From positions 33,658 to 97,657 of the forward strand of contig PAIH01000044.1 of assembly GCA_002711105.1 (NCBI GenBank): a stretch of 64,000 bases of DNA, read 5' to 3'. The stretch comes from Planctomycetota bacterium (GTDB lineage: Bacteria > Planctomycetota > UBA8108 > UBA1146). Below are positions 8,957-42,666 of this stretch, piece by piece. The notes below the pieces were generated by a model. That model did not search any database, was not told where the DNA came from, and worked only from the letters and a program-made list of their open reading frames with translations. The translations under genes and the position numbers were made by a program. Position 1 is the first letter of the stretch, and each line of letters begins with the position of its first letter.

Positions 8957-9033
8957 CGAGCTTCCTCCACGTTTCAAAGCTGAAACTTCTCCGGTGCTCG
9001 CCAATCCTCTCATGGTTTTCATTGAGATGGGAA

Positions 9034-9067
9034 GGGGCCGGAGAAGATCTTGGTCTTCTCCGGCCCC
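9034..9067 (-). terminator. 13-bp hairpin downstream of P1 (terminator-like, weak U tract)
   Basis: ggggccggagaag (9034-9046) pairs with cttctccggcccc (9055-9067). Confidence 0.5.
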
Positions 9068-9092
9068 TGCAACCCTGGCTTCTTACCAATTC

Positions 9093-12000
9093 TTACGGAC
9101 ATCCTCCATAAGTTTCGCAATCAAGACCATCCCCAGGAGTCATGTCGATTCCGCAGGTAATCGGTCCCGGAGCCGGTGGAGGGCCACCGTTCTGGAACTG
9201 GTAGTTCAGCACATAGATGATATCCGATATGTCATGCAAGCCATCGTCATTGGCATCTATTGCATCCGTGCAACCCGATGCAGGACCGCCAAGCATGAGG
9301 CTGTAAAGCATGAAGATCGCATCTGCAATATCCACACTTCCGTCGTCATTAGCATCACCACGGCGGAAACTCGGCTCACACTCATCCGGTAATCCATTTG
9401 CATTGGTATCAAGGCTCTCGCCACTTAGCAGATCACATGCATCTGGTACACCGTTATCATTGCAATCGGGACTAGTGCCGGTAGAAACGTCGCACACATC
9501 TGGTGTCCCGTTCTCGTCACAGTCGGGATCACACTCGTCAGGCGTTCCGTTCCCATCACAATCGGCAGAGGAACCTTCTGCGATATCACAGACATCTGGA
9601 TTTCCATTGCCGTTACAGTCATCTTGCGGAACAACAATCGTCACCGTCTGTTCGACAACCGTCGTGTTACCGTGATTATCAGTAGCGGTCCACTGTAGAA
9701 TCGTACTTCCATGATCATAGGTACCGCTCGCATCGTCCGTTCCATTGAGATCGTTGTATAGATCCACTACCACGCAGTTGTCGCTGGCATTCGGAGTCGG
9801 AATATTGAGTGTTGCAGTACAAGTACCCTCTGGAGCAGGAATCGTCAGATTTCCACTTGTCGTGATGGTCGGGGATTCATTATCAGAAACCGAAACCAGG
9901 AACTGAGCTGAAACTACGTTTCCGTTCGCATCTGACTGCGAGTAACTCACCGTAGTTGTTCCTACCGGGAAGAACTCGCCAGGCTGATGGCTGGTTATCA
10001 GTTCGCCAAGATCGCAGTTATCGGTGGCAGTTGGCGGATTCCAGTTAACACTAGCGCCACACACACCTGGATCGGTCAGCTGTGACAAATCACCCGGTAT
10101 ACCTTCAAGAACTGGATCTTCACTGTCAATTACAGTCACGATGAAGGTGTGCTGACTGAGGTTTCCATGCGCATCAGACAAGGACATGGTCACAAATGTA
10201 GTTCCGACGTTGAAGAATTCTCCTGGCTCATGGCTTGTTGTCAGGTTTGTCGTTCCACAGTTATCACTGACCTGTGCCGGTTCCCAAGTTGCGGTGGCAC
10301 CACAATCTCCAAGTCCTGACGCCATCGTCATACTTTCTGGCGCCAGGTCGAAGCTTGGTGCCTGATCATCACTCACGGTTATCGTGAACGAAGCTGTGGT
10401 CTCATTTCTTGAATCATCTGTAACGGTATAAGATACCGTAGTTGTACCAACAGGGAAAAACTCACCGGCTGAATGGGTGCTGGTAGTGCTGCTGGCTGGG
10501 CAGTTGTCTGCACTTGACGGCTCGGGCCAGCTAACTGTTGCCCCACACAAATCTGGCTCACTGGTAATCGAAATATCATCTGGCATGCCAAACAACTGAG
10601 GTGCTTCCATGTCAGTGACAGAAATCGAGAACTGGTGGCTTGCAGAGTTACCGTTAATATCTTGCAACGTCATCGTGACGACCGTCGTGCCAACGGGGAA
10701 CTGCATGCCAGACGGATAATCAGATCCGAGAGAAAGCACACCGCAGTTGTCACTGGTCTGCGGTGCATCCCAGACTGCGGTAGCAACACATTGTGCCGCA
10801 TTTGTATCGAGCTCCATGTCTCCAGGACTGGTAACAAAGCTAGGGGCTTCATCATCTGAGATGGAAATCTCAAAGGAACTGCTGACTGTAAGACCGTTTA
10901 TATCGGTGGCTGTGTACGTCACCGTTGTGTTACCCACCGAGAAGAAACTTCCTGACGGGTGACTGGTGAAGAGACTTGGACTCGGGCAGTTATCAGTGGT
11001 AGTGGGCGCGGTCCATTCGATGACCGCTCCACAAGCACCTGAATCGGCAGTCTGAGTGACCGAGGCAGGCATATCGTGAATCTGGGGTGCCTGCTCGTCT
11101 GTCACCGTAATACCAAATTCGTGGACCGTCGCCTGACCGTGAATGTCGGCTACAGTCATCGACACCGTGGTAGTTCCCAGCTGGAAGAAATCTCCCGACT
11201 GATGGCTGGAAGTCAGAGATTGAACCGCGCAGTTATCAGAAGTAACTGGGGCCTCCCAGCTCGCCGTTGAACCACACAGATCAGGATCAGTCCCTAGCTG
11301 CTGTGATTGCGGAGAGCTTTCAAACAACGGCGCTTCGTCATCTGTCACGGTAATCGTGAAGGAACCCAGTACTGTATTGTCGCTGGTATCTTCTACTGTG
11401 TATGTGACAAGAGTTTCTCCGACATCAAAGAAATCTCCTGGTTGATGGGTGCTGCTCAGGAGCTCTCCAGCGCAATTGTCTGTAGTAGTCGGAGGCGACC
11501 ACGTTACGCCAGCTCCACAAAGTCCAAGATCAGCAGTCTGGTTAATTCTTCCAGGCATATTGACCAGCTGTGGATTCTCGACGTCACTTACCGTCACGGA
11601 AAATGTATGGGTCGTGACGTTGTTATGGACGTCAGTCAAAGTCAACAGAACATCAGTTGTGCCTGTCGAGAAGAAATCGCCACTATTGTGTGACGTCTCG
11701 ATGGAAAGAACTCCACAGTTATCACTTGTGTTAGGTGCTTCCCAGCTAGCCTGGGCTCCGCACTGACCAGGATCTGAACCCATGGCCATACTTTCAGGAG
11801 CAGTGAGAAACTCTGGGTTTTGATCGTCAAGGACCGTTACCGTGAATGAATCTGCAGTCGTATGACCACTCAGATCTGTACTCGTGTAGGTAACAGTAGT
11901 ATCGCCCATTGCCAACAAGCTACCGCTGGCAATATCTGATCCGAAGGAAGTGACTCCGCAGTTGTCTGCTGAAGTGGGCTCCTCCCAGGTTGCAGTTGCT

Positions 12001-14399
12001 CCACAAACATCAGCATCATTGGTGAGTGTGAAGGAAGAAGGCATACCTGAGATTGTCGGATTTTCGTCATCCGTAACCGTAATTGTGAAAGATGCGGTGG
12101 CCAGGTTCCCTGACAAATCTTCGGCAGTGAACGAGACCTCTGCAGTTCCTACCGGGAATTGAGAACCAGAAAGATGTGACGCACTGACCAGTGGCGGAGG
12201 ACTGCAATTGTCGGTAGCCGCCGGGGTAATCCAGCTCACCGCTGTTGAGCAACTACCCGGATCTGCACTCGCCAGGATATTTTCAGGCACATTCAAGAAC
12301 TCAGGCGGTGTCGGGTCGACGGTGCCTGGATCTTCACACTCGTCCAGAACGCCATTGGTGTTGCAGTCGATCGAAGATCCTGCTGTCAACTGGCACTCAT
12401 CGGGTACCCCATTGCTGTCGCAATCGACCGTCAATCCCTGGTCAATGTCACAGGAATCGATCTGATCATTACCATTACAATCGAGTATCGGTGTGCTAAC
12501 CAGTTCACAAGCGTCAGGAATACCGTCTCCGTCGCAATCTGAGTCTCCGCCGGAGATCTGGCACACATCTAGCTGACCATCACTATCGCAATCAGGAGAA
12601 CCAGACAAAATTTCGCAGCCATCTGGAATACCATTCAGATCGCAATCGGTTTCCAGGCCAGTAGCGATATCGCAACTGTCAGGAACGCTGTTGGAATTGC
12701 AATCTTCGGTTCCTGCCAACAGATCGCAATCATCGGGAGTACCATTTTCATTGCAATCAGTCTCACAGTCATCGGGGAGTGCGTTCGAGTTGCAATCTCC
12801 GCTACTTCCCGAACTAATATCACAACTATCTGGGACTCCGTTATTGTTGCAATCGGGTGTACCCGTCAGAAGATTGCAGGTATCCGGAATTCCATCGCCG
12901 TCACAATCCAAGGAGGAGCCAGAGGTAATATCACAGAGATCTGGAACTCCATTACCATTGCAATCGAGCTTGGCACCGCTGGTAAGTTCACAACGGTCAT
13001 CCAAACCATTTCCGTCACAGTCCGGAGCATCTTCCGTATGGGTCATGAAAACTGCGGGAAAACCCGAAGCTACAACTCCTGCCCAATTACCATTTGTCGT
13101 GACCTGTGAACCATATCGATCACCATTGAGGGTGGTGACAGGTCGTAACGAATCTCTCAGCTCCCAACCCGTGCCAAGGCGACGGTACAGGTGGGCGGAT
13201 CCTTGTGAAGAATCTACATTTGGCTCGCCAACCAGCATTTGCTCTTCAGAGACCGCCAGAGATGTTCCATACCGATTAGTTTCAGGATGAGTACTCATCG
13301 TCTTGTCAACTTGTGTCCAAGTGGCCGCAGTTCGGTCGAAGGTATACACGGCTCCTACCGGACCCGCTCCAGCGGGACCGCCCAGGGCACCAGTAGCAGA
13401 GATCACGAGAGTTTCTCCTGTAGCCGCCAGGTTGGTTCCAAAACCAAGGTTCTGGATGCTGTCTATTGCCGACAGGCTCCCCTGCAATATCCAGATTCCT
13501 CCAAGATCGAGGTACATATGGACTCGTCCTGATCCAGCGGCAAATCCAGGAGCTCCGACAAAAGCCCAGCCACCCTCTGCCAGGGCAACCGAACCACCAG
13601 TCTCCTCACCACCACCCGGATTGAAGGGCGCTGTTTCGGTGAGATGCGCTGTCCGCTCCCAACCGGTACCGGTCTGGGACCAAACATCGGCGTATCCGGA
13701 AGGCTGTATCTGATCGGGATTGTTGGGATTTTCTGGTATCAACTGCGGCGCACCTACGATGATGTCAGACCCCAGCACTGCTACTGATCTACCGTACTCA
13801 TCACTTGGAGACGGTGTTTCGGCCATCAGTTTTGCAACCTGCATCCATCCCAGTTGAGTACGCGCAAAAACATAGGCAGCTCCTCTGGTCGCATCGCTGA
13901 GGGGTGCCCCTACAACGGCGATATCGCCGTCGATGGCCAAGGAACTTCCAAAGCCATCTTCGAATTCTTCATCCAGGGGAACCAACAGGCTACTGTTGAG
14001 CCACATGTTGCTCTGACGCTGATAAACTTCTACCAACCGTACAGCAGGAGGATCTAACGGATCAGGAACATCATCAGGGGCAAGTGGCTCAAACGGATCC
14101 GCCACGAGCAAGGTATCTCCCGACATAGCGATCACGCTCGAGAAACTACCAAACAACGAGTTCACCGGGATCGGCTCGCATACGTCCAAAATCCCGTTCA
14201 AATTACAATCCGCTAACGGATCGGCTGCACTTTCACACTCATCGGGAATCCCGTTACTGTTGCAATCTGAGCTGAACCCTGTAGCGATATCGCCAGCATC
14301 AATTTGGCCGTTGCTATTACAATCAGGAGTCTGCGCTTCGAGCGCAACCGGACCGACAAAAACTGTGAAGGCCAATACGGCCGAAAAGATAATACGCAT
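9093..14399 (-). CDS. Giant secreted modular protein P1 (~1768 aa): DCN repeats, FG-GAP propeller, DCN repeats, ~11 HYR domains, DCN repeats, dockerin-like C-terminal module
   Basis: One uninterrupted ORF. The track start at 14465 is TTG. The ATG at 14399 gives the signal peptide 'MRIIFSAVLAFTVFVGPVALEAQ'. Confidence 0.9.
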   Translation of the reverse strand: MRIIFSAVLAFTVFVGPVALEAQTPDCNSNGQIDAGDIATGFSSDCNSNGIPDECESAADPLADCNLNGILDVCEPIPVNSLFGSFSSVIAMSGDTLLVADPFEPLAPDDVPDPLDPPAVRLVEVYQRQSNMWLNSSLLVPLDEEFEDGFGSSLAIDGDIAVVGAPLSDATRGAAYVFARTQLGWMQVAKLMAETPSPSDEYGRSVAVLGSDIIVGAPQLIPENPNNPDQIQPSGYADVWSQTGTGWERTAHLTETAPFNPGGGEETGGSVALAEGGWAFVGAPGFAAGSGRVHMYLDLGGIWILQGSLSAIDSIQNLGFGTNLAATGETLVISATGALGGPAGAGPVGAVYTFDRTAATWTQVDKTMSTHPETNRYGTSLAVSEEQMLVGEPNVDSSQGSAHLYRRLGTGWELRDSLRPVTTLNGDRYGSQVTTNGNWAGVVASGFPAVFMTHTEDAPDCDGNGLDDRCELTSGAKLDCNGNGVPDLCDITSGSSLDCDGDGIPDTCNLLTGTPDCNNNGVPDSCDISSGSSGDCNSNALPDDCETDCNENGTPDDCDLLAGTEDCNSNSVPDSCDIATGLETDCDLNGIPDGCEILSGSPDCDSDGQLDVCQISGGDSDCDGDGIPDACELVSTPILDCNGNDQIDSCDIDQGLTVDCDSNGVPDECQLTAGSSIDCNTNGVLDECEDPGTVDPTPPEFLNVPENILASADPGSCSTAVSWITPAATDNCSPPPLVSASHLSGSQFPVGTAEVSFTAEDLSGNLATASFTITVTDDENPTISGMPSSFTLTNDADVCGATATWEEPTSADNCGVTSFGSDIASGSLLAMGDTTVTYTSTDLSGHTTADSFTVTVLDDQNPEFLTAPESMAMGSDPGQCGAQASWEAPNTSDNCGVLSIETSHNSGDFFSTGTTDVLLTLTDVHNNVTTHTFSVTVSDVENPQLVNMPGRINQTADLGLCGAGVTWSPPTTTDNCAGELLSSTHQPGDFFDVGETLVTYTVEDTSDNTVLGSFTITVTDDEAPLFESSPQSQQLGTDPDLCGSTASWEAPVTSDNCAVQSLTSSHQSGDFFQLGTTTVSMTVADIHGQATVHEFGITVTDEQAPQIHDMPASVTQTADSGACGAVIEWTAPTTTDNCPSPSLFTSHPSGSFFSVGNTTVTYTATDINGLTVSSSFEISISDDEAPSFVTSPGDMELDTNAAQCVATAVWDAPQTSDNCGVLSLGSDYPSGMQFPVGTTVVTMTLQDINGNSASHQFSISVTDMEAPQLFGMPDDISITSEPDLCGATVSWPEPSSADNCPASSTTSTHSAGEFFPVGTTTVSYTVTDDSRNETTASFTITVSDDQAPSFDLAPESMTMASGLGDCGATATWEPAQVSDNCGTTNLTTSHEPGEFFNVGTTFVTMSLSDAHGNLSQHTFIVTVIDSEDPVLEGIPGDLSQLTDPGVCGASVNWNPPTATDNCDLGELITSHQPGEFFPVGTTTVSYSQSDANGNVVSAQFLVSVSDNESPTITTSGNLTIPAPEGTCTATLNIPTPNASDNCVVVDLYNDLNGTDDASGTYDHGSTILQWTATDNHGNTTVVEQTVTIVVPQDDCNGNGNPDVCDIAEGSSADCDGNGTPDECDPDCDENGTPDVCDVSTGTSPDCNDNGVPDACDLLSGESLDTNANGLPDECEPSFRRGDANDDGSVDIADAIFMLYSLMLGGPASGCTDAIDANDDGLHDISDIIYVLNYQFQNGGPPPAPGPITCGIDMTPGDGLDCETYGGCP
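9096..9374 (-). other. Dockerin-like C-terminal module of P1, ending in ...CETYGGCP
   Basis: Two EF-hand-type loops, 'DANDDGSVDIAD' and 'DANDDGLHDISD', each followed by a hydrophobic helix. Then a Pro-rich linker and a Cys-rich tail. Confidence 0.7.
9640..12310 (-). repeat. HYR (hyalin repeat, Ig-like) domain array of P1, ~11 units of ~83 aa
   Basis: Recurrent 'D.E.P.i...P.d......(C)G A.v.W..P...DNC......sh..G..F.vGtT.VtYt..D..GN......F.vtV.D'. Confidence 0.8.
12310..13040 (-). repeat. DCNxNGxPDxC repeat array of P1 (~13 units of 18-19 aa)
   Basis: For example 'DCDGNGLDDRCE...DCNGNGVPDLCD...DCDGDGIPDTCN...'. Confidence 0.8.
13040..14170 (-). other. FG-GAP / integrin-alpha-like 7-blade beta-propeller of P1
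   Basis: Seven '(F/Y)G.s.a..g....vGAP......G..y.f' blades, e.g. 'GFGSSLAIDGDIAVVGAPLSDATRGAAYVF'. Confidence 0.7.
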
Positions 14400-14830
14400 G
14401 GGAATCCCACCCACTCCCTTTCCGATCGGAGATCCGATCCAGGGGCAATGCCGAATATTCGGCAAAATCCTTCGATAATCGAAAGCGATAACCCCGTACC
14501 CATTTCATTGCTGAGGAGCGAACTGACATAAATAGTCTGTGAAAGGTCGAAATAGCGGCCTTTCCACCAGGATCTGACGATCCACACCTCTAGTGATAAT
14601 CATCACATTTTCAAACTCTTTGCTTTTATACAGGTATGGGCATGTTAACAAAAGCAGAAAAACACCAGATCAACTAACCAAAGAGATATTTATAGTCTTT
14701 TTAGCTATGGGGTTATAGAAAATGCACTGAGAATTAAAAGCCGAATGTATTCAACATAAATAAAGTAACAAAGATAGACAGATCGCTAACATACGAGGTA
14801 ATACTCTGAGAAATAGGGGTAAACAAAACT

Positions 14831-14885: not shown

Positions 14886-17800
14886 TTATGGGCAAGCGTT
14901 GTAGAGCGCGCACCCCAGGCCATCAGAATCGGTCGGATCCACTCCACAACTATCGAAAGGTGGTGGAGGTGGACTCGTACCGTTGAACTGGAAACCGAGG
15001 ATGCTGATCACGTCAGAAACGTCGACAGTGCCATCGTCATTGGCATCTGCTGCGTCGTCGCAACTAGGATCGAGTCCTCCAGCAAAGAGGTTCACCAACA
15101 AGAAGACACCATCTGCAATGTTGACGATGCCATCGCCATTGCCATCACCTCTATAGAAGTTTACCTGACAAGAATCGGGGATTCCGTCACCATCGAGATC
15201 AGTGGCGGCTCCGCTCACCAAATCACATGCATCCGGGATTCCATTACTGTTGCAATCGTCAGCGATACCCTCAGAAATCTCGCACAAATCTGGAATGCTA
15301 TTCACATTGCAATCAGACAGTGTCCCATCAAGAAGATCGCAACTGTCTGGCACTTCGTTCTCATTACAATCATTGGCAACACCAGTAGAGATCTCGCAAC
15401 TATCTGGAACACCTGTACCGTTACAATCTTGCTCGACACCCAGATCGATTTCACAGCTGTCAATATCACCATCAAGATCACAATCAGCCCATGTGCCAGA
15501 AGCGATATCACAGGAGTCGGGAACACCATTCAAGTTGCAATCATTGGCAGTTCCAGTGAAGACTTCGCAGCTATCTGGCACTCCAGTGCCATCGCAATCA
15601 TCCTCTAGCCCGCTGGCAAGGTCGCAAGCGTCTGGGATTCCGTTGTTATTGCAATCAGCCACTTGGCCGTTACCAACGTCGCAGTTGTCAGGCACACCGT
15701 TTCCGTCACAATCGGAAGTACCATTACTGATGTCACAGGAATCGGGAATACCGTTGCTGTTGCAATCCGGAACGGCACCGGTTGAAACCTCGCAACTATC
15801 AGGAACCCCTGAGCTATTGCAATCTTCAGCGACACCATCTATCAAATCGCACGAATCTGGAATCCCGTTGCTATTGCAGTCAGGAGCAGCACCACTGGAA
15901 ATCTCACAGCTATCCGGCACTCCATTGGCGTCGCAATCAGAAGCAGTACCAGCTTCCAAATCACAGACATCGAGTGTTCCGTTAGCGTTGCAATCAGAAG
16001 AAACACCTGTCGCCAGGTCACATGTATCAAGTACCTGATTCTGGTTACAGTCAGTGTCCTGTCCTGTTGCGAGATCGCAATCGTCGAGGATCCCGTTAGA
16101 GTTACAATCCACTTCAGTGCCTGAAATCAACTCACAGGAATCAATGACTCCATCCAAATCGCAGTCTGTCGCACTACCTGCCGAAATCTGGCAGCTATCG
16201 ACAAACCCATCGAAATCGCAATCCAGTTCAACTCCTGATTCGATATCACAGCTATCAGGCTGGCCATTAGCATTGCAATCGAGGACTACCCCGGCGGATA
16301 TCTCACAAGAATCTGGAATTCCGCTCAGGTCGCAGTCTGTTTCAGTGCCCGAGGCAATTTCGCAACCGTCTAAGATTCCATCGCTGTCACAGTCCGCCTC
16401 TGTTCCATTGTTGATTTCGCAACTATCCGGCAGACCATCTTCATCGCAGTCAAGAGAACTACCTTGTTCGATTTCGCAATCGTTAGGTATCCCATCTCCG
16501 TCGCAATCTGGCTGACACTCATCAGGCACACCGTCCAAATTACAATCGAGACTGTTGCCTTCGACGATGTCGCAGACGTCAGGATTGTTATTGTTATTGC
16601 AGTCTGGAGAATCAATCAGAACGGTAACGATTCCAGCTGTGAATGACAAATTCCCGTTGGTATCGGTTGCAGTCCAGTTGATTAACGTATTTCCGCGAGG
16701 GTAGAAACCGGAAGCATTCGCAGTACCGTTGAAGTCATTTACGACTGTCACCTCTCCGCATGCATCAGTTGTTTCCAGTTCTGGAACCTCTACTAAAGCA
16801 CCGCATTCTCCCGCTGGAGCAGTTACAGTTAATGGCAGGGGTGGTGTGATCGTTGCACTTTCATCATCAATAACTGTGACATTGAAAGATTCGGACACAC
16901 TGTTTCCACTGATATCTATAGCAACGTATGTAACGAGAGTGGTTCCTACAGTGAAGAAGGATCCGGAATCATGACTCGACTCAAAACTTGCCAAACCACA
17001 ACCATCTATGCCTGTGGGTTCAAGCCAAGTAATACTCGCACCACAAATCCCAGCTTGTGTCGTGTAGGTAAGATCTGTCGGCAATCCCACTATCTGAGGA
17101 TCTTCATCATCTAGCACTGTAATTTGGAAAGAAGACGTGACTTGATTATCTGAACTGTCAGTGGCCACCACAATGACTGTTGTAGTTCCCACTCCATATT
17201 CCATTCCGGAATAGAAACTTGTCACAAGCTGGGCAACTTCACAATTGTCTGTAGCAGTTGGGAATTCCCAGTTCACTGCAGCAGCGCAATGTCCCGGGGG
17301 TGCAGTGACGATTTGATCCTCGGGTATTGAGGTGATGATCGGAAGTTCTGTATCCAGAACCGTGACCACGAAGCCAGAGGTCGTATCATTCCCAGAAGTA
17401 TCAGATGCGGTGTAGACGACTTCAGTAGCTCCTGCAGGGAAGAACTCACCCGAGCTGTGAGTTGAACTGAATGTAACCGTACCACAGGCATCCTCGATGG
17501 TCGGATCTTCCCAGGTCACCACGGCTCCACATTGGGAACTCGTGTTGTCGAGCTCGATGAAAGCTGGCAAACCGGAGATCTCCGGACCTTGAACATCAGC
17601 TACGTCGATATCGAATGAGTAAACGGCTTCGTTACCTGAGGTATCCGATACCAGATAGCTCACAGTGGTTACACCTACCGGGAAGAAATCTCCACTAGAG
17701 TGTGTTTGTGTAACTTCAGCTACTTCACAGTTATCGATGGATTCAGGTGCTCCCCATGTTGCAACAGCACCGCATTGGTCTTGAGCAGAACCAATTTCTA

Positions 17801-20800
17801 TTATCGACGGCAATCCGTGTAGAACTGGAGGCTCAAGATCCTCGACGGTCACCTGGAACGAACTATCAAAAGTGTTCCCGTGAGTATCGGTGGCGATATA
17901 GGTAACTGTCGTGCTTCCAAGGACAAAGAAACTGCTATTCTCGACATCTGATGTCAGGTTACCAACACCACAGTTGTCTGTAGCAGATGGTGAAATCCAC
18001 GAAACGTCTGTCCCGCAACTACCAGGATCATTGGAAACTACCATGTCAGCAGGCATTCCACTGATCTGAGGCGGCTCTTGATCACTAACCGTCACCATGA
18101 AAGCAACGGTTGTTATTAAATCGGCAGTGTCAGAAGCACTGTATGTGACAACAGTGTCTCCAATCGGGAACACGTCGCCAGGAACATGTGTAGACATGGT
18201 ATTGAAAACCGCACAGTTGTCAGTAAATGTAGGCAGTTCCCAGTCAACGATTGCAGTGCATTCGCCGATGTCCGTATTTGCCTCGATTATTTGAGGAAGA
18301 CCATCAATCTGGGGAACTTCTGTATCCAGTACGGTAACACTGAAAGTAACTTCAGCTGTATTTCCACTGGAATCAGTAGCTATGTAGGTGATCGAAGTTA
18401 CTCCGACCTCGAACAAATCTCCTGAAAGGTAGTTTGAATCCAAAATTTCCACTGTGCAGTTATCAGAAGCCACGGGTTCTTCCCACGAAACCAGAGCACC
18501 GCAAACGGACAGGTCATTTTCGACCGTGATGTCCAGGGGTGTCGAAGTTACAAGAGGAACTTCTGCATCCGTAACAGTTATGAAGAAGCTATGCGTGGAG
18601 ATATTACCGCTCAAGTCAGTAGCCAGTGTAGCCACTTCGGTGACTCCGACCGGGAACCGATCTCCACTGACATGGGTACTTTCGATCGATTCAACTCCAC
18701 AGTTATCAGTAGCAGATATCTCACTCCAGTCGACCGCGGCATCGCAAAGTCCAGCTTCACTGATCACCTGAATATCCGTCGGCGGGGCGATGAACTCGGG
18801 GAATTCAGAATCAACAACCGTCACATCGAAACCGGTGATTAAGATATTCCCGTTCACATCTATCGCGGTGTAAGTCACGGTAGTTACACCTGGGGTCATG
18901 AAAGTTCCGGAGGAGAAATCAGAGGTCAGGGATTCTACTCCGCAGTTGTCTACTGCAAATGGAAGATTCCATGTGACTAGCGACCCACAAATTCCTGGAT
19001 TGGTAACCGCGCCGAAATCAGTTGGTAGACCTATGATCGTCGGAATCTGTATGTCGGTCACCGTGACCAAGAAATCGAACTCTATCATATTCCCTGATGC
19101 ATCGATTGCCACCAAAGACACCACGGTATCACCAGAGGGGAAAACATCTCCGCTTGTATGGGTACTTGTGAAAGAAATCAATTCGCAATTGTCTTCTGCT
19201 AAAGGTGCATCCCATTCGGCGACCGCTGTGCACTCGTTGTTGGCCGTGTTCACAAGAACTCTATCAGGAATGTTCGAGATCACGGGCAACTCATCATCGA
19301 TCACTGTCACGGTGAATTCTGCAGTGTTCACAAGCCCTGCAGTATCTTCCGTTGTGTAGGTAACAGTAGTATTGCCGAGTTCAAACACATGCCCGGTCTG
19401 AATATCAGAACCGAGGCTCACGATCGAGCAGTTATCGGTAGCAGAAGGCTCTGGCCATTCAAATCCAGCAGAGCAAGTCCCTGGGAATATCGAGAGGACC
19501 ACGTCGACAGGCATGTCGTGAATCACTGGCACTTCTTCGTCCAGCACATCAACGGTGAAACTTGCCGTAGTGACATGACCTGCATTATCAGTAGCGGTGT
19601 ATGTAACCGTCGTCGATCCAACGATTAAGAAATCTCCAGGCTGCTGGGTACTTTCCACCGTAGAAATCTGACAATTATCGGTGACCGTTGGGGGTATCCA
19701 ATCGAATGTGGACCCACACTGTCCCGCTTGCGCAGAGAGCGAGACGTCAGCTGGCATATCAGCGATGGTCGGTGCTTCTGTATCCGTGACTGTTACTACG
19801 AATGAACTACTCGTCGAATTACCACTTGGATCCCCAACTGTGTAGGTCACCACGGTATTACCGACTTCAAACAATGTGCCACTCTGGATATCCGAGGAAA
19901 GCCCAACAATCTGACAGTTGTCAGCGGCTGTCGGCTCGACCCAATTGATGAGTGCTCCACAAACTCCTTCATCAGATTCTGTCGATATATTCTCCGGTAG
20001 ACCCAGAATCGAAGGGGCCTCATTATCGACGACAATCACGTTGAAGGTACTTATCGAGGTGTTTTCATTCACATCAGTAACGGTGATTTCGACCGTCGTG
20101 GTTCCTAGCTCAAAAAGATCACCAGGTTGGTGACTTGAGCTGTGCTCGAACACTCCGCAGTTATCACTGGATTCCTCTGAAACCCAGTTCACAACCGCAC
20201 TGCACAATCCAGGATCCGTATCGATCTGTATGTCGGCAGATACGCCAGAGATTTCTGGAAGTTCGTCATCGATCACGGTAACGACAAACTGCTGTTCGGT
20301 GATGTTTCCGGCCAGATCCTGAGCAGTGAATACCACTGTGGTTTCGCCGACAGGGAACAGATCGCCGGTGGTGTGAGTCTGTTGGAATACATCGACTTCG
20401 CAGTTATCAGTAACTTCAGGAGCGGACCATTCATGTGCTGCACCACAAACGCCTGAATCAGTCGAAAGTGTGACGTCTACTGGTACTGCATTGATCACTG
20501 GCTGTTCGTCATCCTCGACGAGGATCGTGAAACTAGCGCCAGTTTCATTCTCTGCCGTATCGATTGCTGTGTAGCTGACCGTTGTACTGCCGACATTGAA
20601 GAAGTCACCAGGCTGATGAGTACTCAATATCTGATCAACGGTGCAGTTATCGGTGATGGTTGGTGGTGTCCAATCAAAAGTGGACCCACATACACCTGAC
20701 TCGACGTTGAGCACAACATCGGAAGGCATATCAGAAATCACCGGAGCTTCATCTTCAGAAACGAAGATAAGGAAAGAATCCGAATGAGAATTGCCACTGG

Positions 20801-23800
20801 GGTCCTGCACGGAGTAGGTCACAACGGTAGGACCAACCTCGAAGAATGTCCCATTCGCAATGTCGGAGGTAAACTCAATCGCCTCGCAGTTATCGCTCGG
20901 GTTAGGTTCTGTCCAGGTAACTACCGCTCCGCATGAACCCAAATCGGTTCCGATGGTGAGGTCGTCTGGCATGTTGAGCAACTGTGGATTTTCATCATCT
21001 ATCACAGTAACTGTGAAGGATGCAGTGCTCACATTTCCGCTCGGATCAGTTACGCTGATCTCCACGGTAGTCAACCCAAGATCAAACGCGTCGCCGGGCA
21101 TTTTTGAAGAAACGTGTTCTTCTATCCAGCAATTGTCGCTAGAGGTTTCCTGGATCCAATCGACCACAGCTGTACAAAGACCCGGATCGGTAAAGACCTG
21201 GATATCTTCTGAGACGCCCGCTATCACCGGGAACTGATCATCAATCACGGTGACATTGAAAGTCTCTTCGTGAGTATTACCGCTGGTATCGGTGGCTACA
21301 TATCGAACTTCAGTCACACCCACAACAAAGTAAGTGTCCGAGGCGTAGTTGGAAGCCAAGATTTCCCCGGCGCAATTGTCTGACGTTGTCGGAGGAATCC
21401 ATGAAGCGACAGATTTGCATTCACCGACCTCGACAATTATCGTGATGTCTTCTGGAATGTCGAACAGCTGTGGATCTTCCATATCCGCAACCGTGACAGT
21501 GAACTGCTCTGTATGAGAATTCCCATGAATATCTACAGTATTTGCAGTAACCAGATACTCACCCTTGTCGAGGAAAGTACCATTTTCCAGGTCCAGATTT
21601 AGACTATCGACAGCGCAGTTATCAGTTGCGCTTGGCTCTTGCCAGCTGACAACAGCTCCGCAGATTCCTGGTTCCGTAGCCACCGTGAAATCTGTGGGAA
21701 CGCTACTGAATACAGGCGCCTCATCATCGGTAACGGTTACTGTAAAACTGGATTCCGCTGGATTCCCACTCGGATCAGATACCGAGTAAGTGACAACCGT
21801 TGATCCAACCTCAAAGAATGAACCGCTAGCAAGGTCTGGAGAGAGTGCAAGTTGCTGACAATTGTCAGTCGCTGTCGGCTCTGTCCACTCGGCAATGGCT
21901 CCGCAGATACCTTCTATTGCAGAAAGCGTGATGTCATCGGGAGTTCCTGCAATAACTGGAGATTCTTGATCAAGAACAACGATCGAGAAAGTGGCTGCAG
22001 ACTGATTGCCATGTATGTCAGAACCCTCAAGGAATACCGTACTGGTTCCCAGAGCAAAGACGTCTCCGGGTTGATGACTGATCGAGTAGTCCAGAAGCTC
22101 GCAGTTATCAGTGGGAACCGGAGGAACCCATTCAACTTGTGCAGTACAAGTTCCAGGATCACAACTCACGGTAATTACATCAGGTAATCCGTTGAAGACT
22201 GGGCCTTCCAGATCATTGACCGTGATCGTGAACTGATCGCTAACAACGTTTCCAGTTGGATCCTGAGCGGTGTAGATGACTGTTGTTTGGCCCAGAGGGA
22301 AAATATCACCAGGTTGATGATTGGAAACGAGCGCGTTGACCTCACAGTTATCGAACGTTTCCGGCAGATCCCAGAGGTGGGCTGCTCCGCAAACTCCGGG
22401 GTCATTTTCCAGTACCACATCTGCCGGCATGACCAAAATCTGTGGGCTTTCAAGATCAGCGACCTGGACCGTGAAACTATCTTCAGCTGACTGCCCTGCG
22501 TTATCTGTCACCAAATAGGTGACTGTCGTAAGTCCTTGAGGGAAGAAGTCGCCAGGCTGATGACTTGCAATGACTTCTGCAATCCCGCAGTTATCCAGGA
22601 AAGCCGGCACGTCCCAATCATGGCTCGAACCACATACACCAGGCTCAGCTCCTATGATGACATCCACGAGAACACCATCGATTGCGGGCCCTTGCGTATC
22701 GTCGATCGTGACAAGGAAGCTCTCTTCCTTGAGGTTACCACTCGTATCGGAAACAGAATAAGTCACAACGGTAGTTCCAACTTCGAAGAAGAAACCACTA
22801 GCGAAATTGGAACTGAGGCCAAGATCCTGGCAGTTGTCACTTGAGGTAGGTTCTTCCCACGTGGCTATTGCACCACAAAGAGAAGGCTCCGCTTCCAACG
22901 CGATATCTGCAGGCAAATCGCTGATCACAGGAAGTTCGGAATCCACAACCGTAACCGTGAAGCTGGCGGTTGCTATATTTCCACTGCCATCAATAGCGGT
23001 GTAAATCACTTCGGTAGAACCAACAGGGAATTCTGTCCCGCTGAGCTGACTCGTGTCCAGACTCAATATTCCAGAGCAATCACTCGCAGTAGGTTCAGTC
23101 CAGGTAGCTACTCCCAAACAGGATCCAGGACTGGAGTCGACCTGAACAACTGCTGGAAGATCTACGATTTGCGGTTGTTCCTGGTCCAGCACCGTAACCA
23201 CGAATGTATCAGTACTAGAATTCCCACTCGGGTCGATGGCGGTGTAGGTGACCAGGGTATCTCCGATGGAGAAAGGTCCACCATTCACAACGTCACTGGA
23301 AATTTCGTGAGAAACACAATCCGTTGCCGTGGGTTCGATCCAAGAAACAATAGCTTCACAGGATCCTTCTGGTGCAACGACCTCAAGATCTTGCGACATT
23401 TCCTGAATCACTGGAGCTTCCACATCTTCGACGGTAACAGCGAAACTCGCAGTGCCGATATTTCCACTCGTATCCTCAACGGTATATGTCACTACTGTGT
23501 TTCCGATCGCGAACGTCGATCCATTTGCGATGTCGGAGCTGAGCAGTAGTACCTGGCAATTATCGGTTGAAGTCGGGTCTTCCCAGACCACGGCCGCTGT
23601 ACAAATTCCAGTCTCATTGGCTACGCTAATATCAGCTGGCATGCCCAGAATCAGCGGAGCTTCAACGTCGATAACCAGTACCGTGAAATTAGCAGTCGAA
23701 ACGTTTCCGCTGCCATCGGTGGCGGTGTAAATCACTTCGGTAGAACCAACAGGGAATTCGGTCCCGTTCGGTTGGCTCGGGTCCAGACTCACTATCCCGG

Positions 23801-26800
23801 AGCAATCATTCGCAGTAGGTTCGGTCCAGGTTGCTACTCCAAGACAGGATCCCGGACTGGAGTCGACCTGAACAACTGTTGTGAGATCTACGATTTGCGG
23901 CTGTTCCTGGTCCAGCACCGAAATCGCAAAGGTCTCGGTTCTGATATTGCCACTCGGATCGGTGGCGGTGTAGGTGACCAGGGTTTCTCCAATGGCGAAA
24001 GAGCCACCATTCACGGCATCGCTGGAAATCTCGTAAGAGACGCAATCCGTAGCAGTGGGTTCCGTCCAGGAAACTAGAGTTTCGCAGAAACCTTCAGGTG
24101 CCACTGTCTCGATGTCCGCAGGCATCAGCGAGATCACAGGGGCTTCCACATCTTCAATGGTCACGGTGAAACTCGCCGTGCCATTATTGCCACTCGGATC
24201 TGAAACCGAATATGTCACCTGCGTAGTACCCAGTGGGAATATCGATCCACTGACTATGTCTGAAGACAGCTGCAGTGCCTGGCAATTATCAGAAGTGGTC
24301 GGCTGCTCCCAGGTCACTGTAGCACCGCAAACTGCAGGATCACTACCCTGAGTGATGTCAGCCGGCATACCCAGAATCATCGGGCTTTCATCGTCGATCA
24401 CCGTCACCGTAAAGGAATCGGAAACCGAATTCCCACTCAAATCAGTAACAACAATGTCGACGATTGTCGTGCCCAGTTCAAATACATCCTGTGGTTGCAT
24501 ACTCGAAGCGTGCTCGAGTATCCCGCAGTTGTCGCTAGAGGTTTCTTGAGCCCAGTCAACCGTGGCGGTACACAGACCAAAATCAGTACTGACCTGGAAG
24601 TCGGCAGGAACATCGTGGATCACGGGGAACTCTTCATCGAGTACCGTGACCGTGAAACTCTCTGTCTGAATGTTGCCTGTCGGATCTTGTGCCGTGTAGG
24701 CAATGTTGTTGACTCCGACCGGGAACGAATCTCCCGATTGAAAATTCGACATGAAAGAAAGAACTATGCAATTATCAGAAACCTCAGGGCTCACCCACTC
24801 ATGCTCGGCACTGCACGTTCCTGGATTTGCAACCAAAGTCATATCAGTAGGCAAGGCGGTGATAACTGGCAATTCGAGATCAACAACTGTGATCTCGAAG
24901 GATTCCGTAGAAACAAGTCCATTAGTATCACTGACGGTAAATGTCACAATCGTGGTTCCTACTTCGAATACGGAACCACTGGCATGATCTGATTCAATTT
25001 CAAGAGCTTGGCAATTGTCTGTTGCGGAAGGTTCATCCCAAATCACTGTAGCACCACACTGACCAGCTTCGTTCTGTACCAAACGGTCTTGCGGTAAAGA
25101 TGAAATCAGAGGAGCTTCTTCATCGAGAACTCGAACGATGAAACTAACAGCAGTTTCATTTTCATGGACATCTGTTGCTAGCAGAGTCACGACAGTATCT
25201 CCAACTTGGAATTCTTGCCCTGATTCGTGGCTCAAAATGGTGTCAGACATTCCACAGTTATCGGTAACGACTGGAGAATCCCAGGTGACGATAGAACTAC
25301 AAAGTCCTGCTGAGTTGGAACTCAACACTATTTCTTGAAGTCCGGTGAAAATCGGCCCTTCAGTATCTGTGACCGTGACCGAGAAGCTGGAAGAGTTTTC
25401 GTTACCAGCTGAATCGACCACGCTGTATGTCACCACGGTAGTTCCTACGGCGAAGAAAGATCCACTCGGTATATCTGAACCCAGTCCAGAAGCTGAACAG
25501 TTATCAGCATATATCGGTTCGGTCCAGGTAACGATCGCACCGCAAACACCTTCTTCAGTCGAGGTGGCTATATCGTCAGAAACACCAAAGACCTGTGGCA
25601 GTTCTTGATCTAAAACTCTGATGGTGAAACTAGCCGCTGTTTCATTACCGTGAATGTCTGTGGCCAGGAGATCGACCGCTGTATCCCCGAGGGCGAAAAT
25701 CTCTCCAGACTGATGACTGGAAGTAATTGTATCGACACCGCAATTGTCAGATACCTGCGGCTGATCCCAGCTCACGGTGGCTCCGCAAACCCCTGGGTCA
25801 CTATCAACAACAAGGAGATTTTGCAGCCCGACAAATTCAGGGTCCTCATCATCAGTAATCGAAATTGAGAAACTAGCTTCGCTCTCGTTTCCACTGGGAT
25901 CACTGACTGAGTAAGTAACTATGGTAGTTCCAACACTGTAGAAGGAACCATTCGGAATATCGGATCCAAAACCAACTATTTGACAGTTGTCAGTAGCAAC
26001 CGGTTCATCCCAGGTGATTGTTGCTCCGCATTGACCGGCGTCGATGCTTACTGCGATATTTGAAGGGACTCCAGAAAGCACAGGTTCCTGATCATCAAGG
26101 ACCGTTACCGTAAAGGAAGCAGACGCTTGATTACCATGTAAGTCCTCTGTGGAAATTTCTACGGTAGTGACTCCAGTTGTGAAGGAACTGCCAGATGCGT
26201 GAGTGATATCGAAGGTTGCAATTCCACAGTTGTCCTGTGAATCGGGGGCAATCCATTCAACAACAGTTGAACATTCATCTTGATCAGCAAAAATCACGGC
26301 GTTATCAGGGATCCGAATGATCTCAGGCGTTTCAGAATCTATCACCGTAATCAAAAATTGATCCGTGACTACGATTCCGGCCGAGTCCTCAACCGTGTAA
26401 CTAACCTCTGTAGTTCCAACCGAGAAAGAATCGCCTGGTTGGTGACTTGCTGCGAAGGAAACAACCTCACAGTTGTCGGAAGGAACCGGTTGAGTCCAAT
26501 CATTGGTGGCCGAGCATAGTCCAGCTTCCGCGGGGATCGTACGATCCGCCGGCATACCGTTTATTTTTGGATCCTCTTCATCATCTACGGTAATTTCGAT
26601 ACTGGCAATCGTGGTCTGACCTATCCCATCAAACACTACAAAATCGACGGTGGTGGTTCCAATCGGGAAGTACGCACCGGATTGATGTGAAACATCGAAA
26701 TCTGTGAGATTGCAATTATCCCAAGGGATCGGATCGTCCCATTCGACATTGGCACCACATTGCCCTTCGTCATTAGTTACGCTAATTGACAGTGGCATAT

Positions 26801-29666: not shown

Positions 29667-29760
29667 CGCACCTCCAAGATGGAGCACACTTCAGTTATCT
29701 AGTCAGACGAACTTCTTCACTCAAATGTTCTGAAGTCGGCATTGGGCTTTTACTTACTTG

Positions 29761-41624: not shown

Positions 41625-41640
41625 GTGAGACCCCTTCCCC

Positions 41641-42621: not shown

Positions 42622-42666
42622 TTGAAGCCTGCTCTCATTCCTCGTTTTGTGGCTTTGCCACGAATT

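What the first reader, a model, noticed from the sequence alone, without database searches (positions are those of the whole stretch)
9096..9374. A conserved ~92-aa C-terminal module (double dockerin-type Ca loop, Pro linker, Cys-rich tail ending in Cys-Pro) is shared by five proteins in the window
Seen in sequence: the extreme C-termini of P1 (9096-9374), P2 (14889-15164), P3 (29813-30085), P4 (60716-60988) and P5 (55262-55534) align without gaps. The pattern is F-x-R-G-D-x-N-x-D-G-x-V-x-I-(A/S)-D-x-I-(F/Y)-x-L, then G-G-x-x-P-x-C-x-D-A-x-D-x-N-D-D-G-x-x-D-(I/V)-S-D-x-I-Y-x-L-x-x-x-F, then a P-rich stretch, then C-G-(V/I/L)-D-x-x-x-D-G-L-x-C-x-x-Y-x-x-C-P-stop. The four giant proteins all terminate exactly in C-P. 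P5 keeps the loops but ends in 'GCDGDADDI'.
Established knowledge: D-x-N-x-D-G-x-x-x-x-x-D loops followed by a helix, in duplicate, define type I dockerins, which bind cohesins in a calcium-dependent way.
Inference: the module is either a dockerin that plugs these proteins into a cohesin-bearing partner, or a lineage-specific C-terminal sorting/anchoring signal whose invariant Cys-Pro end matters. The dockerin duplication combined with a fixed disulfide-rich tail at the very C-terminus is not a combination I recognise from described sorting domains.
Basis: partly seen in the sequence, partly recalled or inferred. Interest (0 to 1): 0.72.

Follow-up and report, generated by a model that had tools for sequence, protein, structure and literature searches.

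The report
Disulfide-clasped dockerin on planctomycete surface proteins
The shared 92-residue tail of five secreted proteins in this marine planctomycete is a calcium-binding dockerin "plug" with an extra cysteine-stapled extension, and one of the five proteins also carries the matching cohesin "sockets", so this is a non-cellulosomal protein-docking system and not a new sorting signal.

Summary
Five ORFs end in a 91-93 aa module that is 44-52% identical between copies. A profile built only from non-window homologues scores them at E 1e-32 to 1e-42.

The module is a type-I-like dockerin. The family profile hits solved dockerins (E 1e-6). An AlphaFold model (pLDDT 94) has only dockerins as its top 32 PDB matches. 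The calcium ligands are 95-100% conserved.

The ~30-aa Pro/Cys tail has no solved or curated counterpart. Cysteine co-occurrence argues for two disulfides, C35-C86 and C73-C92, that clasp the tail onto the dockerin core.

The Cys-Pro end is common (about 33%) but not invariant. Full modules also occur N-terminally and internally in other planctomycete proteins. That rules out a C-terminal sorting signal.

P5 is a signal peptide, two cohesin-fold domains and a variant dockerin. Related marine Planctomycetota MAGs carry tandem arrays of up to nine such cohesin-dockerin genes.

Best reading: cohesin-dockerin tethering of giant HYR/FG-GAP adhesin-like proteins, in the spirit of the published "planctosome" hypothesis. 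Binding itself is untested.

Verdict: a new variant of a known kind, of moderate interest.

The parts
9096..9374 (-). P1 C-terminal dockerin-like module (93 aa). Ca loop 1 = 9321-9356 (DANDDGSVDIAD). Ca loop 2 = 9222-9257 (DANDDGLHDISD). Pro/Cys tail = 9096-9194 (QNGGPPPAPGPITCGIDMTPGDGLDCETYGGCP).
   Evidence: sequence. (AF2 pLDDT 94.4). (top 32 PDB fold hits are dockerins). (E 3e-39 with a profile that excludes window sequences).
14889..15164 (-). P2 C-terminal dockerin-like module (92 aa), ends ...CALYNACP.
   Evidence: E 1e-35.
29813..30085 (-). P3 C-terminal dockerin-like module (91 aa), ends ...CDSYSICP. Loop 1 has T at ligand position 5.
   Evidence: E 3e-32.
60716..60988 (-). P4 C-terminal dockerin-like module (91 aa), ends ...CDSYQSCP. 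It directly follows the last HYR domain.
   Evidence: E 9e-42.
55262..55534 (-). P5 C-terminal variant dockerin (91 aa). Its Cys pattern is C8, C35, C39, C86. It lacks the CG...C-P cysteines and ends GCDGDADDI.
   Evidence: E 6e-35. The variant is conserved in about 47 orthologue clusters.
55976..56428 (-). P5 cohesin-like domain 1 (residues about 28-178, counted from Met at 56509).
   Evidence: The ortholog profile hits the R. flavefaciens ScaC cohesin 5lxv_A at E 4e-5. The AF2 model is a beta-sandwich, pLDDT about 95. The Foldseek cohesin hits apply to the whole P5 model.
55544..55975 (-). P5 cohesin-like domain 2 (residues about 179-322).
   Evidence: The profile hits the cohesin dyad 3l8q (deposited as 'Cellulosomal scaffoldin adaptor protein B') at E 1e-8 for the whole chain; single cohesin chains hit at E 1e-5. 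On the whole P5 model, Foldseek gives 3l8q at E 4e-13 and single cohesins at TM(target) 0.73-0.81, RMSD 2.2-3.3 A.
55259..56557 (-). P5 gene: signal peptide, two cohesin-like domains and a variant dockerin (a small adaptor/scaffoldin-like protein). The true start is probably Met at 56509 or 56503; a 414-aa database protein is 100% identical.
9093..14465 (-). P1 gene: Sec signal peptide, FG-GAP repeats, 10 HYR domains, CxNxNGxPDxC repeats, dockerin module. A Met 22 codons downstream (14399) is the start used in most database copies (1768 aa).
14886..29687 (-). P2 gene: 4933-aa secreted protein with signal peptide, CxNxNGxPDxC repeats and the C-terminal dockerin module. The full protein was not scanned against Pfam.
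29810..38545 (-). P3 gene: signal peptide, FG-GAP repeats, 24 HYR domains, dockerin module.
60713..64000 (-). P4 gene (the 5' end lies beyond the window): at least 12 HYR domains and a dockerin module. Orthologues in related MAGs are over 1900 aa.

Best explanation
The module is an autonomous, secreted, calcium-binding dockerin domain of the type I kind. It has two loop-helix repeats (DxNxDGxxDIxD followed by a helix). In this planctomycete lineage it carries an extra ~30-residue Pro-rich tail that folds back on the core.

The tail is most likely held by two disulfides. One runs from the inter-repeat Cys35 to Cys86. The other lies within the tail, Cys73 to the penultimate Cys92. P5-type copies instead pair Cys8 with Cys39 and keep Cys35-Cys86.

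The module's job is to plug Sec-exported giant HYR/FG-GAP adhesin-like proteins (P1-P4) non-covalently into cohesin domains. Such cohesins are found on small secreted cohesin-cohesin-dockerin proteins like P5. P5's own dockerin can in turn plug into further cohesin carriers, building a surface-associated protein network.

Shown here:
- Homology and fold of the dockerin.
- Conservation of the Ca ligands.
- Cohesin folds in P5 and its many paralogues.
- Strict co-variation of the cysteine pairs.
- Signal peptides.
- Non-exclusive C-terminal position.

Inferred:
- Actual Ca-dependent binding.
- Which cohesin binds which dockerin.
- The disulfide bonds themselves.
- How the complex is anchored to the cell.
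For: Dockerin identity.
- Pfam Dockerin_1 is the only consistent hit for the five copies, at 16.9-21 bits, just under the 22.9 cut-off. It hits 83 of 108 family members at E<=0.01, best 3e-9.
- The family profile matches solved type I dockerins (CelS 1daq/2mte E 1.1e-6, 2y3n_B 1.5e-6) across both repeats.
- The AF2 model of the P1 module has pLDDT 94.4 and pTM 0.86. Its top 32 Foldseek PDB matches are all dockerins, RMSD 1.6-2.9 A in 30 of the 32 over 53-74 columns.
- Ligand positions 7, 9, 11, 18, 40, 42, 44 and 51 are D/N/E in 95-100% of 289 copies.

Cysteine coupling in 572 domain instances.
- C35 with C85 (HMM numbering): 396 both, 9 and 2 alone.
- C73 with C91: 132 both, 1 and 2 alone.
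- C8 with C39: 32 both, 4 and 4 alone.
- Tail-less copies lack C35. A Cys-free variant ending ...DPTPDGL lacks both C35 and C85.

Autonomous domain, not a terminal signal.
- Full-length modules sit at residues about 25-115 and internally in multi-copy proteins.
- About 7 of 289 copies in related MAGs are truly N-terminal or internal.

Partner.
- The P5 orthologue profile hits cohesins (3l8q E 1e-8; 5lxv_A 4e-5).
- The P5 model (pLDDT 89.5) matches the cohesin dyad 3l8q at E 4e-13 and single cohesins at TM 0.73-0.81.
- Some orthologues carry precomputed PF00963 hits.
- 214 of 263 module-bearing ORFs near P5 paralogues carry 1-3 cohesin-like domains.
- Nine co-directional cohesin-dockerin genes lie in tandem in L039 and in L049.

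Export and context.
- P1-P3 and P5 have signal peptides.
- The order P4-P6-P5 is kept in 12-14 MAG species.
- A cohesin/dockerin/HYR 'planctosome' was already hypothesised for freshwater Planctomycetes (PMC6461901).
Against: - No binding, calcium or disulfide experiment exists.
- I could not read coordinates from the model, so S-S distances were not measured.
- The five window copies fall below Pfam's gathering score.
- P5 itself gives no Pfam Cohesin hit at E<=0.01. Its cohesin assignment rests on the orthologue profile and the predicted fold.
- Non-cellulosomal dockerin-like modules are widespread and few have a demonstrated cohesin partner.
- The conserved P4-P6-P5 order also includes housekeeping genes (aminotransferase, GGT). 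It may therefore reflect general synteny and not functional linkage.
- No anchoring protein (SLH, transmembrane or lipoprotein scaffoldin) was found in the window.
Confidence: 0.7

Rival explanations
1. The module is dockerin-derived and binds calcium, but it does not bind cohesins. It serves as a Ca/disulfide-stabilised cap, or it binds another ligand such as glycan, cell-wall polymer or prey surface. The cohesin-like domains of P5 and its paralogues then have an unrelated role.
For: - Window copies are below the Pfam threshold.
- The extra tail could occlude or replace a binding face, and it has no counterpart in solved cohesin-dockerin complexes.
- Weak EF-hand family hits also appear.
- From established knowledge, many non-cellulosomal dockerin-like modules have no demonstrated partner.
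Against: - Cohesin-fold domains are fused to the module in 214 of 263 neighbouring carriers and lie in tandem arrays. Alternating module/cohesin-like architectures are common. This is the pattern expected for interacting partners.
- The two repeats keep near-identical helix residues (DI[A/S]DAI[F/Y]xL), as in cohesin-binding type I dockerins.
Confidence: 0.2
2. The module is a lineage-specific C-terminal sorting or anchoring signal. A dedicated machinery recognises it, possibly cleaves or modifies it at the Cys-Pro end, and so attaches the protein to the envelope.
For: - In the marine lineage sampled, 273 of 289 copies lie within 15 residues of the stop codon. About half of the 14 exceptions are also C-terminal, with longer tails.
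- A Cys lies in the last four residues in 225 of 275, and Cys-Pro is the commonest end.
Against: - The tail has no hydrophobic helix or basic tail.
- The end varies: CP, CQ, CE, GC, CN and others.
- The terminal Cys co-varies with Cys73, as a structural pair would.
- Complete modules occur just after signal peptides and internally.
- It models as a compact, high-confidence globular domain.
- No sortase-, exosortase- or rhombosortase-like gene lies nearby.
Confidence: 0.07
3. The similarity is a chance or low-complexity resemblance (Asp/Gly/Pro-rich ends), or an assembly artefact that duplicated one end.
For: - The composition is rich in D, G and P.
- Part of this region (the patatin and P1 genes) is present on a second contig of the same MAG.
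Against: - The copies are only 44-52% identical to each other, so they are not assembly duplicates.
- An independent profile scores them at E 1e-32 to 1e-42.
- 41,001 cluster representatives match at E<=1e-3 in a 1.84-billion-protein library.
Confidence: 0.01

Closest known systems
Type I dockerin of clostridial and ruminococcal cellulosomes (Pfam PF00404; solved examples 1daq/2mte CelS, 1ohz, 2ccl, 4fl4, 5m2o)
   Same: - Duplicated loop-helix (F-hand) repeat with D-x-N-x-D-G-x-x-D-x-x-D calcium ligands.
- Same fold in the model (RMSD 1.6-2.9 A).
- Usually at the C-terminus of secreted proteins.
- Cohesin-fold domains are encoded in the same genome and in the same window.
- The near-identical repeats are compatible with a dual binding mode.
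   Different: - About 30 extra residues (Pro-rich stretch plus CG-DPT-D-L-C-x-Y-x-C) with no match in solved dockerins.
- A conserved Cys in the inter-repeat linker that co-varies with a tail Cys, giving an inferred disulfide clasp.
- A conserved F-x-R-G-D start.
- The carriers are giant HYR/FG-GAP adhesin-like proteins and cohesin paralogues, not glycoside hydrolases.
- The organism is a marine planctomycete that encodes haem biosynthesis and cytochrome c proteins in the window, not an anaerobic Firmicute.
- The window copies score below Pfam's cut-off.
The 'planctosome' hypothesis (Andrei et al. 2019, ISME J, PMC6461901)
   Same: - Planctomycetes with cohesin and dockerin modules unrelated to cellulose degradation.
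- An adaptor protein combining dockerin, HYR and cohesin.
- Proposed Ca-dependent docking of secreted proteins on the cell surface.
   Different: - It was described for freshwater Nemodlikiaceae with peptidase cargo and a lamin-tail-domain anchor.
- It remains a purely in silico model.
- The text I read does not mention the Cys-stapled tail, the P5-type Coh-Coh-Doc family or tandem arrays of such genes.
- Here the cargo in the window is giant HYR/FG-GAP proteins, and no anchor was identified.
NCBIfam NF041540 'GC-type dockerin domain-anchored protein'
   Same: A curated dockerin-variant C-terminal domain model. It is the best NCBIfam match to three of the five window copies.
   Different: It scores only 11.5-17.3 bits against a 29-bit cut-off. 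It matches 6 of 108 family members, weakly, and covers only the two repeats. The window modules are therefore not members.
Dockerins with stabilising add-ons (type II dockerin with X-module; R. flavefaciens dockerins with inserts and N/C-terminal clasps). This comparison rests on my own knowledge.
   Same: A dockerin core stabilised by an appended element that packs on it.
   Different: Here the add-on is a short C-terminal tail that is inferred to be covalently stapled by disulfides. It is neither an Ig-like X-module nor a non-covalent clasp.

Membership tests
Type I dockerin (PF00404-like) | Two tandem ~22-residue segments, each a 12-residue Ca-binding loop (D1, N/D3, D/N5, D9, D12) followed by a helix | tested here: met
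   The sequence shows DANDDGSVDIAD and DANDDGLHDISD in P1. Ligand columns are 95-100% D/N/E in 289 copies. Helices 22-34 and 55-66 appear in the model.
Type I dockerin (PF00404-like) | Significant sequence match to the curated family model or to solved members | tested here: inconclusive
   The five window copies score 16.9-21 bits, below the gathering score of 22.9. However, 83 of 108 close homologues match at E<=0.01, best 3e-9. The family profile also hits solved dockerins at E 1.1e-6 across both repeats.
Type I dockerin (PF00404-like) | Dockerin three-dimensional fold | tested here: met
   AF2 pLDDT is 94.4. The top 32 Foldseek PDB hits are all dockerins, with TM (target-normalised) 0.54-0.82 for single dockerins, 0.37-0.38 for the double-dockerin 8x39/8x3a, and RMSD 1.6-2.9 A for 30 of the 32. 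This is a predicted structure, not an experimental one.
Type I dockerin (PF00404-like) | Cohesin-bearing partner encoded by the same organism | tested here: met
   P5 in the same window has two cohesin-fold domains. Related MAGs carry many Coh-Doc paralogues.
Type I dockerin (PF00404-like) | Calcium-dependent, specific binding to a cohesin | not testable with these tools
   This needs recombinant protein binding assays. No complex prediction tool was available.
NCBIfam NF041540 GC-type dockerin | Score at or above the curated cut-off (29 bits) | tested here: not met
   Scores are 11.5-17.3 bits for four window copies, and P5 has no hit. Only 6 of 108 homologues match, at E>=0.0036.
C-terminal protein-sorting signals (PEP-CTERM, LPXTG, GlyGly-CTERM, MYXO-CTERM, T9SS CTD and the like) | Signature motif followed by a hydrophobic transmembrane segment and basic tail, or a beta-sandwich CTD for T9SS | tested here: not met
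   The tail is polar and Pro/Asp-rich and ends ...C-x-x-Y-x-x-C-P with no hydrophobic stretch. The fold is a two-helix dockerin. No sorting-signal model in NCBIfam matched.
C-terminal protein-sorting signals (PEP-CTERM, LPXTG, GlyGly-CTERM, MYXO-CTERM, T9SS CTD and the like) | Strictly C-terminal location | tested here: not met
   Of 572 domain instances in multi-copy proteins, 121 are N-terminal and 207 internal. Many of these cover profile positions 2-90. About 7 of 289 copies in related MAGs are not C-terminal.
Cohesin (for P5, PF00963-like) | Sequence and fold match to solved cohesins (nine-stranded beta-sandwich) | tested here: met
   P5 alone gives no Pfam Cohesin hit. The profile of 47 orthologues hits cohesins 3l8q (E 1e-8) and 5lxv_A (E 4e-5). 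The model matches 3l8q at E 4e-13 and single cohesins at TM 0.73-0.81. Several orthologues carry precomputed PF00963.

The most novel reading that the evidence does not exclude
Marine Planctomycetota of this lineage run a very large, non-cellulosomal cohesin-dockerin system. Dozens of paralogous Coh(1-3)-Doc proteins are encoded in tandem arrays of up to nine genes. They would cross-link through disulfide-clasped dockerins of at least two cysteine classes (the P1-P4 type and the P5 type). The result would be a self-assembling extracellular lattice that displays giant HYR/FG-GAP adhesins. This would be a new mode of bacterial surface organisation and not an enzyme scaffold. The Cys-clasp would define a new dockerin type adapted to oxidising seawater.
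Probability: 0.3. Interest if true: 0.7.

Novelty: new variant of a known kind. Interest (0 to 1): 0.45.

Why it matters
Cohesin-dockerin pairs are the classic high-affinity building blocks of cellulosomes and of many synthetic-biology scaffolds. Almost everything known about them comes from anaerobic Firmicutes.

This locus suggests that uncultured marine Planctomycetota use the same plug-and-socket principle on a large scale for something other than cellulose degradation. Matches reach 41,001 cluster representatives at E<=1e-3 in a 1.84-billion-protein library (that total also includes tail-less multi-dockerin proteins of other phyla). The cargo includes giant adhesin-like proteins. The dockerin is reinforced by an inferred disulfide clasp.

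If binding is confirmed, three things follow. It would give an experimental handle on the so far hypothetical "planctosome". It would help explain how planctomycete giant surface proteins are held on the cell. It would also provide a new, probably redox- and calcium-stabilised, family of orthogonal docking pairs. A curated family model covering the whole 92-aa module would improve annotation of many "hypothetical" proteins.

Tried and rejected
- Plus-strand translations at the given coordinates gave nonsense. The genes are on the minus strand.
- The search for related loci with the module alignments A2 and A1 failed because no stretch was conserved enough. I used the P5 family alignment instead, so the genome sample is biased towards neighbourhoods of P5 paralogues.
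- The P5 sequence starting at its GTG codon is not in the protein collection. A 414-aa version starting two Met further in is.
- Peer et al. 2009, on non-cellulosomal cohesin/dockerin modules, is not held in the library. Searches for 'GC-type dockerin' and for dockerin plus disulfide plus Planctomycetota found nothing relevant to the tail.
- The giant-gene preprint and the cellulosome survey do not describe this module.
- I considered a clean split with the P5-type Cys pattern on scaffoldins and the CP-type on cargo. Only half holds. The P5 type is essentially confined to cohesin carriers (96 against 6 truncated ORFs), but the CP type occurs on both (77 cohesin carriers against 22).
- I could not extract model coordinates, so disulfide geometry was not measured. 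Connectivity rests on co-occurrence statistics.
- The window's other genes were screened for a sorting enzyme or anchor, and none was found. They encode haem biosynthesis, PEPCK, GGT, patatin and similar functions.
- The representative-library hit list is ranked by total score. It therefore over-represents multi-copy proteins and cannot be used to estimate the fraction of C-terminal copies.
Full report
**1. Observation**

The coordinates are correct, but the coding strand is minus. Plus-strand translations are noise. The ORFs are:

| Protein | Coordinates | Length |
|---|---|---|
| P1 | 9093-14465(-) | 1790 aa |
| P2 | 14886-29687(-) | 4933 aa |
| P3 | 29810-38545(-) | 2911 aa |
| P4 | 60713 to beyond the window end (-) | partial |
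| P5 | 55259-56557(-) | 432 aa |

The last 91-93 residues align with 44-52% identity to P1 and 19 invariant columns, needing only single-residue indels. P1-P4 end in Cys-Pro-stop and P5 ends in GCDGDADDI-stop.

A profile built from 103 homologues that excludes the window sequences scores the five copies at E 3e-32 to 9e-42. It finds no sixth full copy in the window.

**2. Organism and carriers**

Exact-sequence look-ups place the window in a marine metagenome-assembled genome, 'Planctomycetes bacterium' (locus tags CMJ95_, proteins MAW777xx, contig 205,872 bp). Close relatives occur in many marine assemblies.

P1, P3 and P4 consist of FG-GAP repeats and 10-24 HYR domains. P1-P3 start with Sec-type signal peptides and are Cys-rich, with repeated CxNxNGxPDxC motifs.

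The surrounding genes are housekeeping: a haem biosynthesis cluster, PEPCK, gamma-glutamyltranspeptidase, an aminotransferase, patatin and others. No sortase-like or exosortase-like gene is present.

**3. The module is a dockerin**

- Pfam Dockerin_1 is the only consistent hit, at 16.9-21 bits against a cut-off of 22.9. Among 108 close homologues, 83 match it at E<=0.01, best 3e-9.
- The family profile (alignment A2) matches solved type I dockerins: CelS 1daq/2mte at E 1.1e-6 and 2y3n_B at 1.5e-6. The match covers both repeats but never the tail.
- An AlphaFold2 model of the last 99 residues of P1, built with that alignment, is very confident (mean pLDDT 94.4, pTM 0.86). It has helices at residues 22-34 and 55-66, and the tail is also at pLDDT about 90.
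- The top 32 Foldseek matches in the PDB are all dockerins. RMSD is 1.6-2.9 A in 30 of the 32, over 53-74 of the 99 residues.
- The eight Ca-ligand columns are D/N/E in 95-100% of 289 copies from related genomes.

**4. The tail**

Residues about 61-93 follow the pattern G-G-P-P-P-x-P-[F/Y]-P-x-C-G-x-D-P-T-x-D-x-L-x-C-x-x-Y-x-x-C-[P/E/Q]. This stretch has no counterpart in solved dockerins, in Pfam or in NCBIfam. NF041540 'GC-type dockerin' reaches only 11.5-17.3 of the 29 bits required.

I aligned 572 domain instances to the module HMM. The cysteines come in strictly co-varying pairs (HMM numbering; P1 numbering in brackets):

| Pair | Both present | First only | Second only |
|---|---|---|---|
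| C35 and C85 (P1: C35, C86) | 396 | 9 | 2 |
| C73 and C91 (P1: C73, C92) | 132 | 1 | 2 |
| C8 and C39 | 32 | 4 | 4 |

Copies without a tail lack C35. A Cys-free variant on ~1700-aa proteins stops at ...DPTPDGL, just before the C85 position, and also lacks C35.

The simplest reading is a disulfide clasp. C35-C86 staples the tail to the linker between the two repeats, and C73-C92 closes a loop within the tail. P5-type copies use C8-C39 plus C35-C86 instead. This is an inference from co-occurrence. I could not read atomic distances from the model.

The second pair is enriched in C-terminal copies: 85 of 112 '.C.CCC' instances.

The Cys-Pro end is the commonest ending but not invariant. It accounts for 36/120 endings and 91/275. 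CQ, CE, GC, CN and others also occur.

**5. Not a sorting signal**

An HMM search of 1.84 billion cluster representatives returns 41,001 proteins at E<=1e-3 and 23,950 at E<=1e-10. The 150 best are multi-copy proteins. In them, complete modules (profile positions 2 to about 90, tail included) sit just after the signal peptide, internally and at the C-terminus. Many alternate with ~170-aa domains.

Where named, the tail-bearing multi-copy proteins come from Planctomycetota MAGs. Tail-less multi-dockerin proteins come from other phyla.

In an unranked sample of 74 loci from related MAGs plus the window (1.23 Mb), 289 stop-to-stop ORFs carry the module. Of these, 273 have it within 15 residues of the stop. 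About half of the 14 exceptions are also C-terminal with longer tails, and about 7 are truly N-terminal or internal.

The module is therefore an autonomous domain that prefers, but does not require, the C-terminus. It has no hydrophobic anchor.

**6. The partner**

The ~170-aa domains between modules give sub-threshold Pfam Cohesin hits. They are homologous to the N-terminal part of P5.

P5 has a conserved orthologue family of about 410-435 aa, some members with precomputed PF00963 and PF00404.

A profile of 47 orthologues gives three kinds of PDB hit:
- Residues 177-294 hit the A. cellulolyticus cohesin dyad 3l8q at E 1e-8 (single cohesins at E 1e-5).
- Residues 23-85 hit the R. flavefaciens ScaC cohesin 5lxv_A at E 4e-5.
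- Residues 324-378 hit dockerins.

The AlphaFold2 model of P5 (pLDDT 89.5) shows a signal helix, two beta-sandwiches and the dockerin. Foldseek returns the cohesin dyad 3l8q at E 4e-13 and many single cohesins at TM 0.73-0.81 and RMSD 2.2-3.3 A.

P5 is thus a small secreted cohesin-cohesin-dockerin protein, the architecture of an adaptor scaffoldin.

**7. Genomic scale**

Nearly all are in marine Planctomycetota MAGs (UBA1146, TMED53 and others), with several paralogues per genome.

Of 263 C-terminal-module ORFs in those loci, 214 carry one to three cohesin-like domains. L039 and L049 each contain nine consecutive co-directional cohesin-dockerin genes.

The P5-type cysteine pattern is essentially confined to cohesin carriers (96 against 6 truncated ORFs). 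The P1-P4 type occurs on both cohesin carriers and other proteins. Other carriers include FG-GAP, NHL, Kelch/galactose-oxidase-like and trypsin-like proteins.

The order P4 - P6 (DUF7133/HEAT/cytochrome c) - P5 is conserved in 12-14 MAG species. The flanking housekeeping genes are conserved as well, so this is weak evidence for functional coupling.

**8. Mechanism proposed**

Sec-exported giant HYR/FG-GAP proteins carry a Ca-loaded, disulfide-clasped dockerin. This plugs into cohesin domains on small Coh-Coh-Doc proteins such as P5. Those proteins' own dockerins attach to further cohesin carriers, so a surface-associated network forms.

Shown: homology, fold, ligand conservation, cysteine coupling, presence and abundance of cohesin folds, signal peptides.

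Inferred: binding, pair specificity, the disulfides and anchoring.

I put 0.7 on cohesin docking as the function, and about 0.35 on P5 being the direct partner of P1-P4.

**9. Comparison with what is known**

The closest family is the type I dockerin. The closest system-level idea is the 'planctosome' proposed in silico for freshwater Nemodlikiaceae, which has cohesin, dockerin and HYR modules without cellulases (PMC6461901).

Neither that paper, nor the other papers found, nor the curated libraries describe the following:
- the Pro/Cys tail and its coupled cysteines,
- the P5-type variant,
- the tandem Coh-Doc arrays.

I therefore class the finding as a new variant of a known kind. It is a genuine dockerin with a lineage-specific, probably disulfide-stapled extension, embedded in an expanded non-cellulosomal cohesin-dockerin system.

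Interest is moderate (0.45). The clasp and the scale of the system are worth experimental follow-up.

Noticed in passing
L039:3-20520(+) and L049:479-16673(+): These loci hold tandem arrays of nine consecutive, co-directional genes. Each encodes 1-3 cohesin-like domains plus the C-terminal module. In L039 the array is followed by a 1739-aa module-bearing protein. It is an unusually dense paralogue expansion.
   Followed up: partly
window 55259-64000 and L002-L015: The gene order P4 (giant HYR protein) - P6 (DUF7133/HEAT/cytochrome c, 57264-60578) - P5 (Coh-Coh-Doc) - aminotransferase - GGT is conserved in 12-14 species-level MAGs at 50-86% protein identity.
   Followed up: partly
L024-L026, L030, L032, L033, L039-L041, L044, L053 (ORFs of about 1685-1745 aa): These ORFs carry a cysteine-free version of the module that stops at ...PFP-x-x-GTDPTPDGL, just before the usual Cys. 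It also lacks the inter-repeat Cys35. This is a natural 'clasp-less' control.
   Followed up: no
window, P1 residues 68, 502-682, 1617-1668; P2 498-517 and 4471-4812; P3 2759-2791: Repeated C-[ND]-x-N-G-x-P-D-x-C motifs (thrombospondin-type-3-like, Cys-flanked Asp/Asn loops) occur at the N-termini and immediately upstream of the dockerin in P1-P3, but not in P4. One near the P1 N-terminus gives a weak secondary hit to the dockerin profile.
   Followed up: no
window modules, residues 5-7 (e.g. 9354-9362 in P1): The module starts with a nearly invariant [F/Y]-x-R-G-D: Arg in 486, Gly in 526 and Asp in 560 of 572 copies. An R-G-D tripeptide is thus embedded at the first Ca ligand. Its significance, if any, is unknown.
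   Followed up: no
window 4576-14465: Identical patatin and P1 proteins carry two GenBank accessions each (MAW75835/MAW77709 and MAW75841/MAW77715) on two contigs of the same MAG (42,852 and 205,872 bp). The assembly is therefore redundant here. P1 is annotated from a TTG 22 codons upstream of the Met used in most other copies (1768 aa).
   Followed up: no
(database records): Near-identical fragments of these planctomycete proteins are deposited in MAGs labelled Poseidoniales archaeon, Pseudomonadales, Bacillota, Proteobacteria and Dehalococcoidia. This probably reflects binning contamination, not true distribution.
   Followed up: no
window 39206-45796(-): This is a compact haem biosynthesis cluster: glutamyl-tRNA reductase, porphobilinogen deaminase, HemD, ALAD, URO-D and protoporphyrinogen oxidase. 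It separates the P1-P3 block from P5/P4.
   Followed up: no
L031, L053, L060 (ORFs of 567-625 aa): Here the module is internal (residues about 342-478) and is followed by a C-terminal region with CxxCH haem-binding motifs. That would be a dockerin fused upstream of a cytochrome c-like domain.
   Followed up: no
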